This document shows, in pieces, positions 10,174 to 54,953 of a stretch of DNA of 64,000 nt. The notes beneath the pieces were generated by a model. The model searched no databases. It had not been told where the DNA came from and saw only the letters and a program-made list of their open reading frames with translations. The position numbers were made by a program, and so were the translations under genes. Numbering within the stretch: position 1 is the stretch's first letter; each line of letters begins with the position of its first letter. The stretch comes from Hormiphora californensis (lineage: Eukaryota > Animalia > Ctenophora): positions 3,720,001 to 3,784,000 of the forward strand of contig CM035354.1 in NCBI GenBank assembly GCA_020137815.1, given 5' to 3'.

Positions 10174-24131
<13,958 letters not shown>

Positions 24132-26010: not shown

Positions 26011-26365
26011 TGCTCTTAGCCGGTCATATCTGGTTAAAAAGTAAATGACAATATCCAGTGTTCATTTGACTCAATCAGTAGACTACTAGGGTAGGGTGAG
26101 AGAAACGATCATATATAATTGTTGCTTATTTTAAAGTTTGGTGTATAAAGATCAAACATTTCACATGTAACACCGCAATATAAATCGTATATACTCACAC
26201 TAGTAAACGGAAACGGGCCTTTTTTATGAAGCTTAATGTAATCTTTAAATCAACTAAAACGTACGAGTAATTACTAAAACTAGGGTTAACAAGTTTCAAG
26301 TTTCAAGACCAAAACAACAACTTTATTTCAGTCTTGGTCCATTTCAGAAGCGAGGTTTCAGACAA

Positions 26366-27137: not shown

Positions 27138-27632
27138 GATGCCGGCCCCGGGCCCCCTACCCCCAAATAGAAAAGGAGTTATTAGCGGTAAAAAGAAAAA
27201 TCCCCCTAGCGGTGGGGGGGGGGTGTTCGGGATAAGTGGTTCCGACTTCCACAAAAATTTACGTCATATTGCCAGGGCGAAACGAAAAAAGACCATCACA
27301 GTTCATGGGAGCGGACCGTGTCTTAGAAGTCGTAGAAAACGCTTTAATCGGGTGGCCACTGGCCAATATGACGGAGTACTATGTGCAAAAAACTTTCCAG
27401 CTGTACCCCTACTTGTTTTCTACACTTTACCGAGGACCGATCTTTACTTTCGTGTGATAGTGTACTGAAAGTCCCGCCGATATTTATCAGTAGGGGCAGT
27501 AGGCACCACACACGGCATTTTCGAGAATTCTCGAAAATGTTTAGGTCAGTACCACGTGACCAGTTTCAACTAATCACAGTGCAGAACAGCCCTTATGATG
27601 TGCGGATGACATGTGCGTGCTGGAGCTGTTGT

Positions 27633-28533
27633 GAATGAATGAATGAATGAATATCACAATTTATATTAGAGTTCTTAACAGACTCTTCCCGCTCTTACAC
27701 TATAGACATATATAGTTAAGTATATATATCCTACAAGGCCGAGAGGGTAAGAGCATCGACAGTTACCTAAAGCGGGGTAACATATATAGAAACAGTCCGA
27801 TAGATAAAGTTCAGTTCGCTATCCGACTTGGATCACATTGTTTGATGTAATAATTGCCACCTGGATCATCTGTCCGAACCCGTTTCAAGGTGGCCAGCAG
27901 AGCTTTTCGCTCCTTTAGTTGGGAGGGGTTAAGATCCGGTGACAGATATATGGTAGAGTGTTTTTTTGGATTCTTTGAGCTGCCGTCCCTTCTTCAGCAG
28001 CGCCAAAAGGGTTGCTCTCTTCTCAAGAGATACCAAGAGCGGCCTAGGGCGTTCCTCGTTTCTCTCACCGATACGTTTCATGTTAGCAACTTTCGGTTTC
28101 TCCGTTCAGTTCTTCAAATAGCTCATCCAACATTGGTTCATCAGCATTCTCAGTTGATTCTGGGAGCCCAAATATTACCAAGTTCTTCTCTCGATTTGTC
28201 TGGGTATTACTGTAGCAGAAAGAGGCTTAGAAGTTGGTGGCTTAGGGGGAGTTGGTAGCTTTTTCGCCATAGGGGAGGCTGCGGCATAGTTTTGAGCCAG
28301 GACTGTCGAGTAGGCTTTCACCTTCTGCACTGACGTTTCCACTGAGCTCAGTTGTTCTTTCTGGCATTGATGACCGTTTGTTGCAGTTCAATGATCAAAC
28401 ACGATTTCGTTCAAGCTCTCTTTGCACACAGAGAGTTGCTTCTCGAGTTTTTCTGCTGTGATTACGGTGTTCAAATTGTTCATCGCTGCTTGAGCAAGTT
28501 TAGCACTGGAAACAAAGAGGTTGGTGGTGACAT
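27633..28533 (-). mobile_element. Decayed LINE ORF1-only retroelement B with (ATTC)n tail
   Basis: REKNLVIFGLPES, RIGE...RPRPLLVSL, IYLSPDL...ERK (LINE ORF1 RRM/CTD-type motifs). Short 3' UTR, then ATTC repeats at 27633-27652. No ORF2. Confidence 0.75.
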
Positions 28534-29443
28534 AAACTTGAAACTTGAAACTTGAAAATAAATTGAGGCTATCAAACAAATGACCACCTTTCAACTCAAC
28601 TGTCCTTTCCTCGCTCACCACTTCTAAACTCAACAAATTTAATTTCAATTCTCAGTAGTCCCTGGTGCTTCTACCACCTCCTTCCCACGAATGAAGTAGT
28701 GTTTTCCAGGAGACCTTTGAACCATTTCCTTCAGTCGATCAACAAGCTGTTTTCTCTCATTTCGTTCCTCCAAAGTCCGTCAGGCGAAATGTAGCTTTAT
28801 CGAACTTGCCGGTCCTTTTTAGTCGGGATTTTTTCGACAGGATCGACATCTGAGCGTCTCTGCTCTTCAGTACGACTTTCACTGGTCTGACAGTTAAAGA
28901 CTGCCTTCCCATGCGCTCCACTGATTTCACGTTCTGAGTTTCTCCTAGCTCAACAAGAAGAGACTCAACTTGAGTTTCAAGCTCTACGCTACTATTTATT
29001 GACTCTTCCAGGCCATGGATGATAATGTTGCATCAACAACTTGTTTTGGAGAAAGGTCCTTGAGACGATGTTTGAAGAATGTCCCCATGTTATTTTCGGT
29101 TGGGCCCGAGCAATCAGGAGTAAAATCCCTCGCAGGTGCATATTTGATGGAATTATAGCACTGACTAACGTTCTCGGGTGTGATACTTATCTGTTGTTCG
29201 GGAACAGCAGCCCAATGCAGCCGTTCAACTCCCAAAACAAAGTCATCAATGGATTCGATCAGTTGTTTTATCTTGGGGTTATCGCCCTCGTACGGTAAGC
29301 GAAGAATATTATCCAATCTTTTATCTTGATACATCGGCTTCATTATCAGCGTTTCACTTTTCTGCCCTTTGGGGCGGTCACATCACCATATCTACCTGCT
29401 CAAATTAATTTGTTTAAAGTAGTGTTGAAAAGTTTGAAACTTG
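28534..29443 (-). mobile_element. Decayed LINE ORF1-only retroelement A with spliced-leader-like 5' end and (TTTCAAG)n tail
   Basis: CNIIIHGLEES, VERMGR...RPVKVVL, TLEERNERKQLV...HYFIRG. Tail at 28534-28555. CAAGTTT at both ends. Confidence 0.78.
29399..29441 (-). other. Spliced-leader-like sequence (ctenophore type), not followed by a GT donor
   Basis: AGTTTCAAACTTTTCAACACTACTTTAAACAAATTAATTTGAG followed by CAGGTAGATATG. Identity with the Pleurobrachia SL is recalled from memory and was not aligned. Confidence 0.75.
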
Positions 29444-30158
29444 TCACGCGGTACAAACCTAAACATTTCCGAGATTGCTCATCGTGGTATGGCGGTAAGC
29501 GTTTAAAAAATTGAGACCCTGGTGTCGATTTGGTGTTTTCAGGGGCGGCGTTACGATATGGGTGTTTGGTGGCCTGTTCACAGGTGCCCCCTGCCAAAAA
29601 GCCCCCTGCACTAAAATGGTTCTAAACGCCAAACCACTCAACCGTTTTGGCTAATCCAAATTTTATATGATGGGAAATGTCAAGGCCTAACTCCAACCCA
29701 AGCCCCAACCCTAACCCTAACCGTACTTCAGCCCTAACGAAAATTCACTAACCCCAACAGCCCTAACCCTAAAAACTTTTCTTTTTTTTTTAGAAATTCA
29801 CTAACCCCAACACCGATTGGCATCACTTTCCGACAGCCGAAGAGAAGCTGCCGAAGAGAGAAAGGGGGTAACCGTATGAAGAGTTAATCGCGATGAGTCT
29901 CATTCACATTGGGTTCGATCATTTGCCCCCGGTGTTGGGTTAGTAATAAATAAATAAATCTTAAAATCACTCACTCAAATAAACAATAAATATTACAAAT
30001 AAAAAGTCAGTCAGTAAAATCACACATTGCGATGGGAGGTGGAGTCGTGAACTTTTTCCTCGTGCCCCTCAGTGAGACCAAGGTACTTCTGAGGAGACAG
30101 AACCGTATCCGCGTTCTCAAGAAATTAATCACCTCAGCGTATTTGTCCTTGTGTTTAA

Positions 30159-30384
30159 AGTACACCCCAAACTACTATGTCCCTCACTCAGGTTTTGTGA
30201 AATTTCCCACGGTCATAACTCCACTCCCTGATGAGATAGAGACTTGAAATTTGTTTTGTACGAAGAACTCGATATAATCTCCCTACAAAACAAATTTCAA
30301 GTCTCTATCTTATCAGGGGGTGGAGCTATGGCCGTCTAAAATCCGGTCGCGCGCAGCAAGGGACATAGTAGTTTGGGGGAACCT
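30159..30384. mobile_element. Palindromic MITE at a TTAA-type site (Kolobok-like AG...CT ends)
   Basis: CCCCAAACTACTATGTCCCT / AGGGACATAGTAGTTTGGGG plus inner arms GATAGAGACTTGAAATTTGTTTTGTA and its reverse complement. Confidence 0.7.
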
Positions 30385-36316: not shown

Positions 36317-37479
36317 GGCCAGTCGTATGACGTTTATTTCTGGACATAAAAGTTGTAAATCTAATTCCACTTCTATTGCACTCTAATAGGTCCCTAGAAA
36401 CACCACAAAAACAGCCCGGTCGGTACGTGGTGGAGAACTTGCCTTAATTGGGCCTAATTGGTTACAAGGTATTTTCAGCCTGAAGCCAAAACCATAAGTA
36501 CCCTTAGAATAGGAGTAGAGAAAAAACCAAGGGCATTAAAGTGATCAGCGTCCTCGCATTAGTGGGGGTAGGTGCTGGAATTAAGTCTCTATCTAATCTG
36601 GTTAATTAGATAATTGGATAATTAGATGTGCACAAAGCCGTTGTATGGTTATATGGTAAAAACCGTCTTAGGAAACGAGTAGAGAAAAAACCGAGGGCAC
36701 TAAAGTCATCAGCGTCCTCGAATTAGTGGGGGTAGACGCCAATGAAAAGTCTCTATCTTATCTGGTTAATTAGATAATTGGATAATTAGATCTGCGCATA
36801 GCCGTTTTTGGCCATATGGCTATAGCCACTTAGAAATGGTTTAGAAACTTTTCACTGGTGCCATTTTGTAGGCAATGGCCAAGTTATGGGGGGTCGACGC
36901 CGGACTTTTAAGCTCTATCTCCAACCGTTTAGCCGTTATTTGACTTTAAAAGTGCTCAAAATGAGCAAAAAACGGTAAAAAGCCCGATTTTTAGCACATT
37001 TAAAGCCGAATAACGGCTAAACGGTTGGAGATAGAGCTTAAAAGTCCGACGTCGACCCCCCATAACATGGCCATTGCCTACAAAATGGCACCAGTGAAAA
37101 GTCTCTAAACCATTCCTAAGTGGCTGTAGCCATATAGCCAAAAAACGGTTATGCGCATAACTAATTATCCAATTATCTAATTAACCTGATGAGATAGAGA
37201 CTTAATTCCAGCACCTACCCCCACTAATGCGAGGACGCTGATCACTTTAATGCCCTTGGCTTTTTCTCTACTCCTATTCTAAGGGTACTTATGGTTTTGG
37301 CTTCAGGCTGAAAATACCCTGTAACCAATTAGGCCCAATTAAGGCAAGTTCTCCACCATGTACCGACCGGGCTGTTTTTGTGGTGTTTCTAGGGACCTAT
37401 TAGAGTGTAATAGAAGTGGAATTATGTTTACAACTTTTCTGTCCATTTTTTATTTAAATCAGACGTCATACGACTGGCC
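36317..37479. mobile_element. 1.16-kb foldback element flanked by TA, with an internal ~170-bp duplication
   Basis: TA|GGCCAGTCGTATGACGT...ACGTCATACGACTGGCC|TA. Long inverted arms centred near 36970. The left arm carries an extra tandem unit (~36510-36850). Confidence 0.85.
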
Positions 37480-53222: not shown

Positions 53223-54205
53223 AGAGAGGTTCACTTTAGCATAATATATAATTCAGCACGGTCTGGACAGCAAGGTGTGAAAAGGAGCACGATGGATGGA
53301 AAGTGGCCCTATTATTGGATTATGAATCGAGAATATACAATTACGGGTAACAACCTAGCAATAAAATTACCACCCGGCCCTGGGATCAGTATTAATTTTA
53401 AAAACGAAAAAAACCAAAAAAAATAATAGAAACCCTAATAAACAGTTTTTACTTTTTCGTTGAAAGATAGATAAATAGGGGGGGGGAGAAAGAGAGAGGG
53501 GGGAGAGAGAAAAGAAAAAAAAAAAAAGGGGGGGGGGGGGGTTTTTTTCTCCTGGTTTTCTTCTTTCAAAGAGTAATTGTGACACATCTAATACTCGTAA
53601 TTTGCATGTTATTACGGATAAAGGGATATTAGTAGGAGACATAGATAGAGGTAGAGACAGAAGCAGGGAGATGGATAGATAGATAGAGATAGATAGATAG
53701 GGAGAGAAATATGGTGGCGAAGGGGATAAATTCGAGGAATAAAGATGAGATACGTGTCAACACATTTGTTGAATGAGCTATCAAGAGCAATTAGAAAGGG
53801 AGAAAAGAGAGAGAGAGAGAGAGGGGGGGGGGGGGGGGGAAAAAAAAAAAAAAGGGGGGGGGGAAAAAAATGACAGCATGACAGACCTTCTAAGAGCTCG
53901 GACTTGTTGTTGGGGAAGGATCGAGCAGCAGCTTGATCACATCTCGCGACATCGCGAGCTAAGAATATATTTTATATGCACATTGTGGGAAGAGAAAGGG
54001 GGGATGTTGTCCCCCCTCTCTGCCTTAAAAAGAGATCGGTTGGGTTTTGGGGGGGGGCCCCGGGAGGGGCCCAAAAACATGGAAAAGTGGTAAGAAAAAA
54101 TTTCATATCAACTGGAAAAGGGGGATAATGAATAAATTTTGAGAAAGGGGAAGAGAAAGGAGGAGGAGAAGGAAAAAAAAAGGGGGGGGGGGGGAAAAAA
54201 AAAAA

Positions 54206-54241
<36 letters not shown>

Positions 54242-54351
54242 AAAAAAAAAAAAAAAGGGGGGGGGGGGGGGGGGGGGGGGGAAAAAAAAGGGGGGGGGGG
54301 AAAAATTTTAAAAAAGGGGAAAACCCGGGAAAAAAAAAGGGAAAGGGGGAA

Positions 54352-54451
54352 NNNNNNNNNNNNNNNNNNNNNNNNNNNNNNNNNNNNNNNNNNNNNNNNN
54401 NNNNNNNNNNNNNNNNNNNNNNNNNNNNNNNNNNNNNNNNNNNNNNNNNNN
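54352..54451. other. Assembly gap (100 N) with low-quality flanks
   Basis: N run flanked by G/A and T homopolymer noise. Confidence 0.99.
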
Positions 54452-54580
54452 AAATTTTTTTTTTGTTTTTTTTTTTTTTTGTTAAAAAAATGCCCTTTTT
54501 TTTTTTTTTTTTAAAATTGGAAACTTTGAAGGGCCCACCAGAATATAATTTTGTGTATCTGTAGCGAAAAACAAAAGCTG

Positions 54581-54953
54581 TTAAACATATGTCACCTTAC
54601 GTAATATATCGGTTTAATATTTTTCAATATTTAAAAAATCTAGAACTGGCATTTTGTGCATGCTAAAATAATGGTAGCCCTTCAGAACTATAGAATCTTT
54701 GAATTAGGAGATCGTGAAGAAACTTCTAGAAGACCACCCACCCTTCAAAGAATGAACTTTAGTCACCCACGAAGTTGTTCTAGAATAGCAGATCAAGTTC
54801 TTTTAATGGGGGGCCTGTAATGGTTAACTAATAATAGATTCTTTGGAAAATCTTACTTTGATTTCCAAACTAGTTTAGCATGCACAAAGTACCGATTCTG
54901 TATTCTCTGAAAATTATAAAACCGATATATTACGCACGGTAACATATTTTTAA
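54581..54953. mobile_element. Diverged inverted-repeat element (MITE-like)
   Basis: CGTAATATATCGGTTT...TGTGCATGCTAAA pairs with TTTAGCATGCACA...AAACCGATATATTACG. Confidence 0.6.

What the first reader, a model, noticed from the sequence alone, without database searches (positions are those of the whole stretch)
28534..29443. Spliced-leader-capped, ORF1-only retroelement: a possibly trans-spliced non-autonomous LINE
Seen (- strand): a 43-nt AGTTTCAAACTTTTCAACACTACTTTAAACAAATTAATTTGAG joined directly to ~750 nt of frameshifted LINE ORF1 (CNIIIHGLEE, RPVKV, TLEERNERK). About 100 nt of UTR and a (TTTCAAG)3 tail follow, and CAAGTTT occurs at both ends. No RT or endonuclease is present. Known: ctenophore mRNAs are SL trans-spliced; as I recall their leaders end in AATTTGAG; SL RNA genes have GT right after the leader, whereas here CAG follows. 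Inference: the element RNA was trans-spliced, reverse-transcribed to full length in trans and reinserted. A retroelement family could use trans-splicing to cut itself out of host read-through transcripts without its own promoter.
Basis: partly seen in the sequence, partly recalled or inferred. Interest (0 to 1): 0.9.

Follow-up and report, generated by a model that had tools for sequence, protein, structure and literature searches.

The report
Spliced-leader-capped retrotransposons in comb jellies
A broken jumping gene in a comb-jelly genome starts with an exact copy of the 43-letter leader that these animals splice onto their messenger RNAs, and about ten other jumping-gene copies of several families carry all or most of it, so these elements were likely copied into DNA from leader-capped messages and may renew the leader each cycle.

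Summary
The leader is real: 29441-29399 (-) equals nt 2-44 of the published Hormiphora spliced leader (SL), with no GT donor or SL-gene promoter beside it. The 910-bp 'element' is two elements. Host B (SL + ORF1 + 3'UTR + (TTCA)5, 1,310 bp, 29441-27632) is interrupted at 29031/28530 by A, a 5'-truncated copy of another ORF1-only family, which brings the TTTCAAG tail. Intact B proteins and DNA contigs of three runs join across A. CAAGTTT at the two ends is therefore not a target-site duplication. The idea generalises. Of 39 metagenome loci with the SL core, 11 are retroelement-type (a full-length A copy, another ORF1-only family, LINE-type elements with an endonuclease-like start), 1 is an SL-5S gene array and 27 are mRNA-like. 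All 8 non-SL-gene loci with foreign DNA upstream are retroelements. A relative's ORF1 model matches human L1 ORF1p. Origin from trans-spliced RNA is well supported. Renewal by re-splicing at the leader's last AG is inferred; promoter-free read-through is untested. The scan found SL-capped LINEs before in dinoflagellates; ten paper searches showed none for ctenophores.

The parts
29399..29441 (-). Genomic copy of the ctenophore spliced leader, 43 nt, the 5' end of element B; the first 8 nt are also part of the flanking repeat arm, so 35-43 nt come from the RNA
   Evidence: identity to the published leader; and record 14 (shared 8 nt)
29344..29398 (-). 5' UTR of B: CAG after the leader and a GCCCC-AAA-GGGC hairpin motif shared with L037, L018, L034 and partly L022
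29031..29343 (-). ORF1 of element B, N-terminal 104 codons
   Evidence: 84-87% identity to P0015-P0018
29031..29043 (-). Left copy of the target-site duplication of A (13 bp, begins CAAGTT; its last 7 nt also resemble A's 5' end)
28541..29030 (-). Element A: 5'-truncated copy of a second ORF1-only family (frameshifted RRM-CTD half of ORF1 to the stop near 28645, about 90 nt of 3' UTR, TTTCAAG tail), inserted into B
   Evidence: 87% nt identity over 501 columns to SL-capped full-length copy L018
28531..28540 (-). Right, imperfect copy of the target-site duplication of A (10 bp, begins CAAGTT; overlaps the third tail unit)
27819..28530 (-). ORF1 of element B, C-terminal part (coiled coil, RRM, CTD), broken by several frameshifts
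   Evidence: fold from relative L037
27652..27818 (-). 3' UTR of B, directly after the ORF1 stop, with no ORF2
   Evidence: 27630-27760 folds at z -2.6
27632..27651 (-). (TTCA)5 tail, the 3' end of B
   Evidence: summed contig depth drops past it in 4 of 4 runs
29434..29480 (-). Left arm of an inverted-repeat (MITE-like) element, the likely target of B; ends in the same 8 nt that start the leader
27523..27569 (+). Right arm of the same inverted repeat (84% identical over the 37 nt aligned by BLAST)

Best explanation
The locus is a dead, nested pair of ORF1-only non-LTR retroelements whose outer member begins with the host's spliced leader, likely because it was reverse-transcribed in trans, by a LINE enzyme, from a trans-spliced RNA, and leader-capped copies likely renew the leader in each cycle by being trans-spliced again at the leader's own last AG. 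Shown: the leader identity; the nesting of A in B; the ORF1-only layout with tails; leader-capped DNA copies in several unrelated families. [quoted passage not shown] Inferred (about 0.55-0.6): a transcript running into a genomic copy sees the embedded leader as an outron ending in AG; SL trans-splicing swaps it for a fresh capped leader and restores the same 5' end without a scar, because the leader has AG only at nt 1-2 and 42-43. Untested (about 0.35): that this makes a promoter unnecessary. The partner LINE that supplies RT was not identified.
For: Leader 43/43. SL genes have GTAAG after the leader and a different upstream sequence (L025); the same upstream is the consensus behind the leader in run X1, and the window has neither. 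Nesting. L1-ORF1p fold for relative L037: Foldseek E 2.6e-7; VIA Z 10.4, rmsd 2.5, 88 residues aligned; all six ORF1 pieces of A's and B's conserved halves hit the family profile. Family trait: 11 of 39 SL-core loci are retroelement-type; 8 of 11 have 15 nt or more of foreign DNA upstream against 0 of 27 mRNA-like loci; the flanks differ and leader lengths run 28-43 nt. In X3 and X5 most listed contigs of B's 5' end run into the leader (X5 record 21, depth 1767, beside body records at 1230 and 362). The junction varies: CAG in the window, two extra letters in X3 and X5, three extra in RNA run X17 (table 4), as independent splicing at neighbouring AGs would give. B relatives also carry a different TTGAG-ending leader at the same place, in DNA (X5) and poly(A) RNA (X16) (table 7). 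No stacked leader relics in 12 of 12 copies. The 28-nt core is exact while ORF1s are 31-85% identical or unrelated.
Against: No raw RNA reads were available, so no splicing event, cap or start site was seen; only 3 contigs each were laid from X16 and X17, and one X17 contig keeps flank plus a 14-nt leader remnant unspliced. The exact-match search cannot find copies with a decayed leader, so the leader's constancy is partly built in. The 8-of-11 versus 0-of-27 contrast is confounded by library type and by the easier assembly of multi-copy repeats. GAG is a weak 3' splice site (general knowledge), and 3 of 11 elements keep a stronger TTTYAG right behind it (0 of 27 mRNAs, p 0.02, post hoc), which should be lost if it were used. 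The alternative leader may be an outron or a decayed leader rather than a second SL class. This copy is not inside an intron of the nearest same-strand gene. RT domains were not seen in any capped element: only 1,500 nt were held and the records could not be extended.
Confidence: 0.6

Rival explanations
1. The leader was captured by trans-splicing but is now inherited as the element's own 5' end: an internal promoter (the conserved motif about 17-23 nt behind the leader, or the leader itself) starts transcription at leader nt 1, and no trans-splicing is needed in each cycle.
For: A motif at a near-fixed distance behind the leader is shared by five elements with different ORF1s. TTTYAG is retained in three families. 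A promoter role for the leader has been proposed for dinoflagellate retrogenes (PMC5585692, passages).
Against: Most copies lack the first 1-15 nt of the leader, which would erode an inherited end. The core stays identical to mRNA leaders across unrelated families (biased search). A different leader occurs at the same position.
Confidence: 0.22
2. A few master copies keep their own promoter, outron and acceptor; their RNA is trans-spliced like any mRNA, and the leader-capped copies are dead-end progeny, like processed pseudogenes.
For: About 30% of TE Iso-Seq reads in Hydra carry an SL (PMC12220107, passage). The alternative AT-rich TTGAG-ending sequence on B relatives could be such an outron, and one X3 contig joins 255 nt of other DNA ending in AG to 29381. 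The window copy is dead.
Against: Among the 17 loose ends listed (15 more not shown) none is a high-depth non-leader extension at the leader junction. The 255-nt flank shares sequence with the flank of another copy in the opposite orientation, so it looks like a repeat used as target. Capped copies with open ORF1 exist (L037, L004, L009, L010, L017, L024, L036, L039).
Confidence: 0.15
3. The element inserted site-specifically into an SL RNA gene, as NeSL or CRE-type elements do, so the leader is target DNA.
For: SL-exon-targeting non-LTR elements exist (PMC4640811, passages). A's tail unit equals the first 7-8 nt of the leader.
Against: No SL-gene upstream in 9 of 9 flanks tested (local scores 6-14). 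No SL intron or 5S gene after the tail of B or L037; Rfam found 5S only in L025 and none around the window copy. Leaders are 5'-truncated at varied positions.
Confidence: 0.03

Closest known systems
HAL1 (half-L1) ORF1-only non-autonomous retrotransposons of mammals (PMC5753468, passages)
   Same: Encodes only an ORF1p of the L1 coiled coil-RRM-CTD type, followed by a 3' UTR and a tail; multi-copy; must be mobilised in trans.
   Different: Microsatellite tails (TTCA, TTTCAAG, AAT) instead of poly(A); 5' end is the host spliced leader; parent clade unknown; a large radiation (253 clusters at 50% identity with E up to 1e-30; their taxa and layouts are mostly unknown).
Relict-SL retrogenes of dinoflagellates, 'mRNA recycling' (PMC12014239, PMC5585692, passages)
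   Same: Trans-spliced RNA reverse-transcribed into DNA with the leader at its 5' end; re-splicing at an AG within the embedded leader.
   Different: Here the capped DNA copies found are retroelements and not host genes (8 of 8 embedded loci), the host is an animal, and the leader has no internal AG, so no relic stacks are expected or seen (0 of 12).
SL-capped LINEs of dinoflagellates
   Same: LINE copies whose DNA starts with the host leader, across distant relatives.
   Different: A trans-splicing system of a different lineage, in an animal; includes ORF1-only families; scarless rather than stacked leaders.
NeSL and CRE/SLACS-type SL-gene-targeting retrotransposons (PMC4640811, passages; details recalled)
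   Same: Non-LTR element physically joined to SL sequence.
   Different: Those insert into SL genes and encode RT with a restriction-like endonuclease; these are dispersed, lack SL-gene flanks, and have ORF1 alone or ORF1 plus an APE-like start.
Trans-spliced TE transcripts in Hydra (PMC12220107, passage)
   Same: TE RNAs use host SL trans-splicing (about 30% of TE Iso-Seq reads).
   Different: RNA-level observation; the passages seen report no leader at the genomic 5' ends of elements.

Membership tests
ORF1-only non-autonomous non-LTR retrotransposon (HAL1-like) | ORF1p of LINE type | tested here: met
   Model of relative L037 (pLDDT 81.5) hits human L1 ORF1p first in two searches; window pieces hit the family profile at E 3.5e-12 to 1.6e-4. 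Pfam gave no ORF1 family hit.
ORF1-only non-autonomous non-LTR retrotransposon (HAL1-like) | No ORF2; stop codon followed by short UTR and tail | tested here: met
   B: 167 nt then (TTCA)5; A and L018: about 90 nt then TTTCAAG units; L037: about 90 nt then AAT units.
ORF1-only non-autonomous non-LTR retrotransposon (HAL1-like) | Dispersed multiple copies | tested here: met
   Many variant contigs over both elements in 4 of 4 DNA runs; L018 in another flank; three Mnemiopsis proteins of one 90% cluster on three long contigs.
ORF1-only non-autonomous non-LTR retrotransposon (HAL1-like) | Target-site duplication or microhomology of target-primed insertion | tested here: inconclusive
   A: imperfect 13/10-bp duplication and 5' truncation. 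B: 8-nt 5' microhomology, no clear duplication, no empty-site joint among the rows listed.
HAL1 proper | Derived from an L1-clade autonomous element sharing the 3' end | not testable with these tools
   No genome held; no RT-bearing partner reached.
SL RNA gene | GT donor directly after the leader, then the SL intron | tested here: not met
   Window has CAG then element UTR; L025 shows GTAAG.
SL RNA gene | SL-gene upstream region and tandem 5S-linked unit | tested here: not met
   window flank is an inverted-repeat arm.
SL-gene-targeting retrotransposon (NeSL, CRE) | Inserted within an SL gene, with both halves of the gene as flanks | tested here: not met
   0 of 9 upstream flanks resemble the SL-gene upstream; no SL intron after the tail.
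Relict-SL retrocopy (dinoflagellate type) | Leader at the genomic 5' end of a retroposed sequence | tested here: met
Relict-SL retrocopy (dinoflagellate type) | Partial leader relic behind a new leader | tested here: not met
   0 of 12 copies have a second 10-nt leader piece within 150 nt.
Trans-splicing-dependent retrotransposon (proposed) | Element RNA trans-spliced in vivo at the embedded leader | tested here: inconclusive
   Only RNA contigs; 3 laid in each of X16 and X17.
Autonomous APE-type LINE (for L004, L009, L010, L017, L022, L024, L036, L039) | ORF1 followed by ORF2 with endonuclease and RT | tested here: inconclusive
   Overlapping second frame begins with an APE-like motif (Pfam PF03372 E 0.052 for L009, nothing for L022; no PDB sequence hit). 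L010 ORF1 models as tandem RRM with weak CCHC hits. RT lies beyond the DNA held.

The most novel reading that the evidence does not exclude
Ctenophore non-LTR retrotransposons, autonomous and ORF1-only alike, have given up promoters: the genomic copy of the host leader serves as a self-renewing trans-splice acceptor, so any read-through transcript is cut, capped and turned into a unit-length element RNA without a scar, the spliceosome doing the job that the ribozyme does for R2. Many of the hundreds of leader copies counted in ctenophore genomes would then be retroelement 5' ends.
Probability: 0.35. Interest if true: 0.85.

Novelty: new variant of a known kind. Interest (0 to 1): 0.63.

Why it matters
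How non-LTR elements make a complete 5' end and get transcribed is a long-standing question; known answers are internal promoters and self-cleaving ribozymes (recalled). A host leader that is both cap donor and acceptor would be a third answer, here in an animal with public chromosome-scale genomes and long-read RNA, so it can be tested now by computation. It also offers an explanation for the 718 and 491 genomic leader copies reported for Hormiphora and Mnemiopsis, gives an exact marker for full-length ctenophore LINEs, and flags a large family of ORF1-only elements that current gene sets list as hypothetical proteins.

Tried and rejected
One element from 28534 to 29443 with a CAAGTTT duplication: rejected. 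SL RNA gene: rejected. CAG-GT as a shifted splice donor: no SL intron follows. Assembly chimera for the nesting: not fully excluded, since no listed contig bridges the filled A junctions (one search shows 32 pieces, 15,605 not shown), but the duplicated target argues for a real insertion. B in an intron of the DUF1295 gene: rejected, that gene is intronless and starts about 500 bp downstream. SL core absent from viral and prokaryote collections. Pfam and PDB sequence searches did not name the ORF1s. L034's ORF did not match the family profile, so it is counted as retroelement-type only by its shared post-leader motif and is the weakest of the 11. The one long hit P0152 is an ORF1 fused to a host gene model, not to ORF2. 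The protein atlas did not answer. 3' ends of A and of the 9.6-kb look-alike do not fold better than shuffles (z -0.5, -0.3). Six joints from the leader start into different points of the upstream repeat have sides of 21-27 nt and are treated as weak. No sequence variants were listed in the 19 leader bases laid, but that stretch is too short to mean anything. RNA runs X16 and X17 hold only small shares of the stretch and show no expression level. Papers not held: Derelle 2010 and two more tried by id; Hormiphora supplements unreadable, and they may list leader variants or loci that bear on the alternative leader. Repbase and Dfam could not be searched.

Full report
1. The observation. On the minus strand, 29441-29399 is identical to nt 2-44 of the leader consensus published for the ctenophore Hormiphora californensis (passage of PMC8527503; string comparison). 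It is the only exact match in the window. The same passage reports 718 leader copies in that genome, 491 in Mnemiopsis, and the leader on 56% of Iso-Seq reads. The neighbouring DUF1295 gene is 92% identical to a protein whose name style matches the Pleurobrachia bachei set, so the window is from a pleurobrachiid comb jelly. No whole genome was held.

2. It is not an SL gene. A scan of metagenome contigs for the 28-nt leader core gave 40 matches in 39 loci. L025 holds two 778-bp units, each with leader, GTAAG and a 5S rRNA gene. The consensus behind the leader in DNA run X1 agrees with L025's upstream in its first 20 nt. The window has neither donor nor this upstream. Its flank is one arm of an inverted repeat (29480-29434 against 27523-27569) that ends in the same 8 nt with which the leader starts, so 35-43 nt of the leader come from the inserted RNA.

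3. L018, a leader-capped ORF1-only element with the same 3' UTR and tail, matches the window at 87% only over 29037-28541; its 5' half is different. A search with the window's N-terminal piece found 4 proteins among 39 candidates, 84-87% identical. Their residues 1-103 align to 29343-29026 and residues 100 onward to 28537-27841. Contigs of X1, X3 and X5 join 28530 to 29031, and three contigs in each of X3 and X5 continue at 29031 into the sequence of 28530 onward. So host B is leader, 55-nt UTR, ORF1, 167-nt UTR and (TTCA)5, 1,310 bp without the insert. Guest A is a 5'-truncated copy of the L018 family with an imperfect 13/10-bp duplication that begins CAAGTT. Both are frameshifted in the window. 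No listed contig bridges the filled junctions of A, so the nesting itself rests on the assembly and the duplication.

4. The proteins. Pfam and PDB sequence searches were blank for ORF1 families. A 14-sequence alignment headed by L037 folded at pLDDT 81.5. Its best matches are human LINE-1 ORF1p: Foldseek E 2.6e-7, and VIA Z 10.4, rmsd 2.5, 88 residues. Six window pieces, two of A and four of B, hit the profile at E 3.5e-12 to 1.6e-4; the next hit in the window is at E 1.9. The family is large: 253 clusters at E up to 1e-30. Named members are P. bachei gene models and three Mnemiopsis hypothetical proteins.

5. Leader capping is general. Of the 39 loci, I classed by their translations 27 as host-mRNA-like, 1 as SL genes and 11 as retroelement-type. 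The 11 are: L018 and L037 (ORF1-only with tails); L004, L009, L010, L017, L024, L036, L039 (ORF1 31-85% identical to L010, modelled as tandem RRM with weak CCHC hits, then an overlapping frame with an APE-like start); L022 (cysteine-rich ORF1, APE-like start); L034 (uncertain). RT was beyond the 1,500 nt held. Eight of 11 have 15 nt or more of foreign DNA before the leader, against 0 of 27; library type confounds this. Leader lengths are 28-43 nt. None of 9 flanks resembles the SL-gene upstream, and none of 12 copies has a second leader piece. In X3 and X5 most listed contigs of B's 5' end run into the leader. The junction varies by two or three letters. B relatives in X5 (DNA) and X16 (poly(A) RNA) carry a different AT-rich leader ending in TTGAG. 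One X17 RNA contig has flank plus 14 nt of leader, unspliced (all).

6. Mechanism. Step 1 (inferred, strong): an element RNA was trans-spliced, then copied by target-primed reverse transcription with a LINE ORF2 in trans, the tail annealing to the target and the 5' end joined with variable loss or microhomology. Step 2 (inferred, moderate): the copy has lost any outron, yet capped copies with open ORF1 exist in many families with an unchanged leader core. The leader has AG only at nt 1-2 and 42-43. Splicing at the last AG would replace old leader by new without a scar, which fits the absence of relics, the tolerance of 5' truncation and the second leader type. Against it: GAG is a weak acceptor, and three families keep TTTYAG just behind it. 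In C. elegans the germline prefers the upstream, non-consensus site of adjacent acceptors (abstract of PMC4484395); a similar bias would preserve this layout, but that is an analogy only. Step 3 (untested): the source of the primary transcript. B is not in an intron of the DUF1295 gene, and a motif shared by five elements 17-23 nt behind the leader could be an internal promoter.

7. Comparison. It works like dinoflagellate leader recycling (passages of PMC12014239 and PMC5585692) applied to the retroelements themselves, and its layout is that of HAL1 (passages of PMC5753468). It fails the tests for an SL gene and for SL-targeting elements (passages of PMC4640811). Hydra TE transcripts are often trans-spliced (passage of PMC12220107). 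Ten searches (listings and abstract starts) and passages of PMC7986045, PMC10946416, PMC9311404, PMC12460157 and PMC12859917 showed no report of leader-capped retroelement DNA in ctenophores or other animals. Derelle 2010 was not held and is known here only as cited; subscription papers and Repbase were out of reach. The scan's notes hold several dinoflagellate cases and a sea-squirt ORF1-only element in SL genes (unchecked), and nothing on this genome or sequence.

8. Verdict. New variant of a known kind; interest 0.63. The promoter-free, self-renewing reading has probability about 0.35 and would deserve 0.85.

Noticed in passing
L025:263-381 and 1041-1159: Ctenophore SL RNA genes alternate with 5S rRNA genes in a 778-bp tandem unit.
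   Followed up: partly
window 9612-9587 (-): 26 nt, 92% identical to the end of A's 3' UTR, at the end of an otherwise unrelated stretch with no Pfam hit; possibly another element using the same 3' recognition motif.
   Followed up: partly
window 28557-28537 and 29441-29434: A's tail unit, read in register, equals the first 7-8 nt of the leader; unexplained. It could bias A towards leader-bearing or similar targets.
   Followed up: no
window 26290-26307 (+): 18 nt identical to A's tail, just 3' of the DUF1295 gene; a tail remnant or chance.
   Followed up: no
window 27132-26369 (-): Intronless DUF1295 (steroid 5-alpha-reductase-like) gene whose 5' half is full of frameshifts that look like assembly errors.
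   Followed up: partly
window 22153-23172, 36341-37445, 30165-30378, 29533-29750: Long inverted-repeat (MITE-like) elements, one with 498-nt arms at 99%; 29533-29750 is very high-copy in 4 of 4 DNA runs.
   Followed up: no
P0016, P0152, P0159, P0021-P0023: ORF1s of this family are listed as genes or hypothetical proteins in P. bachei and Mnemiopsis sets; P0152 is fused to a PSF3 gene model.
   Followed up: partly
window 29385-29403, runs X5 and X16: A second AT-rich leader-like sequence ending in TTGAG on B relatives; a possible second SL class. Not found in the window or in the 39 loci.
   Followed up: partly
window about 53400-54600: 100-N gap with homopolymer-rich, low-quality sequence; the assembly is a draft.
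   Followed up: no
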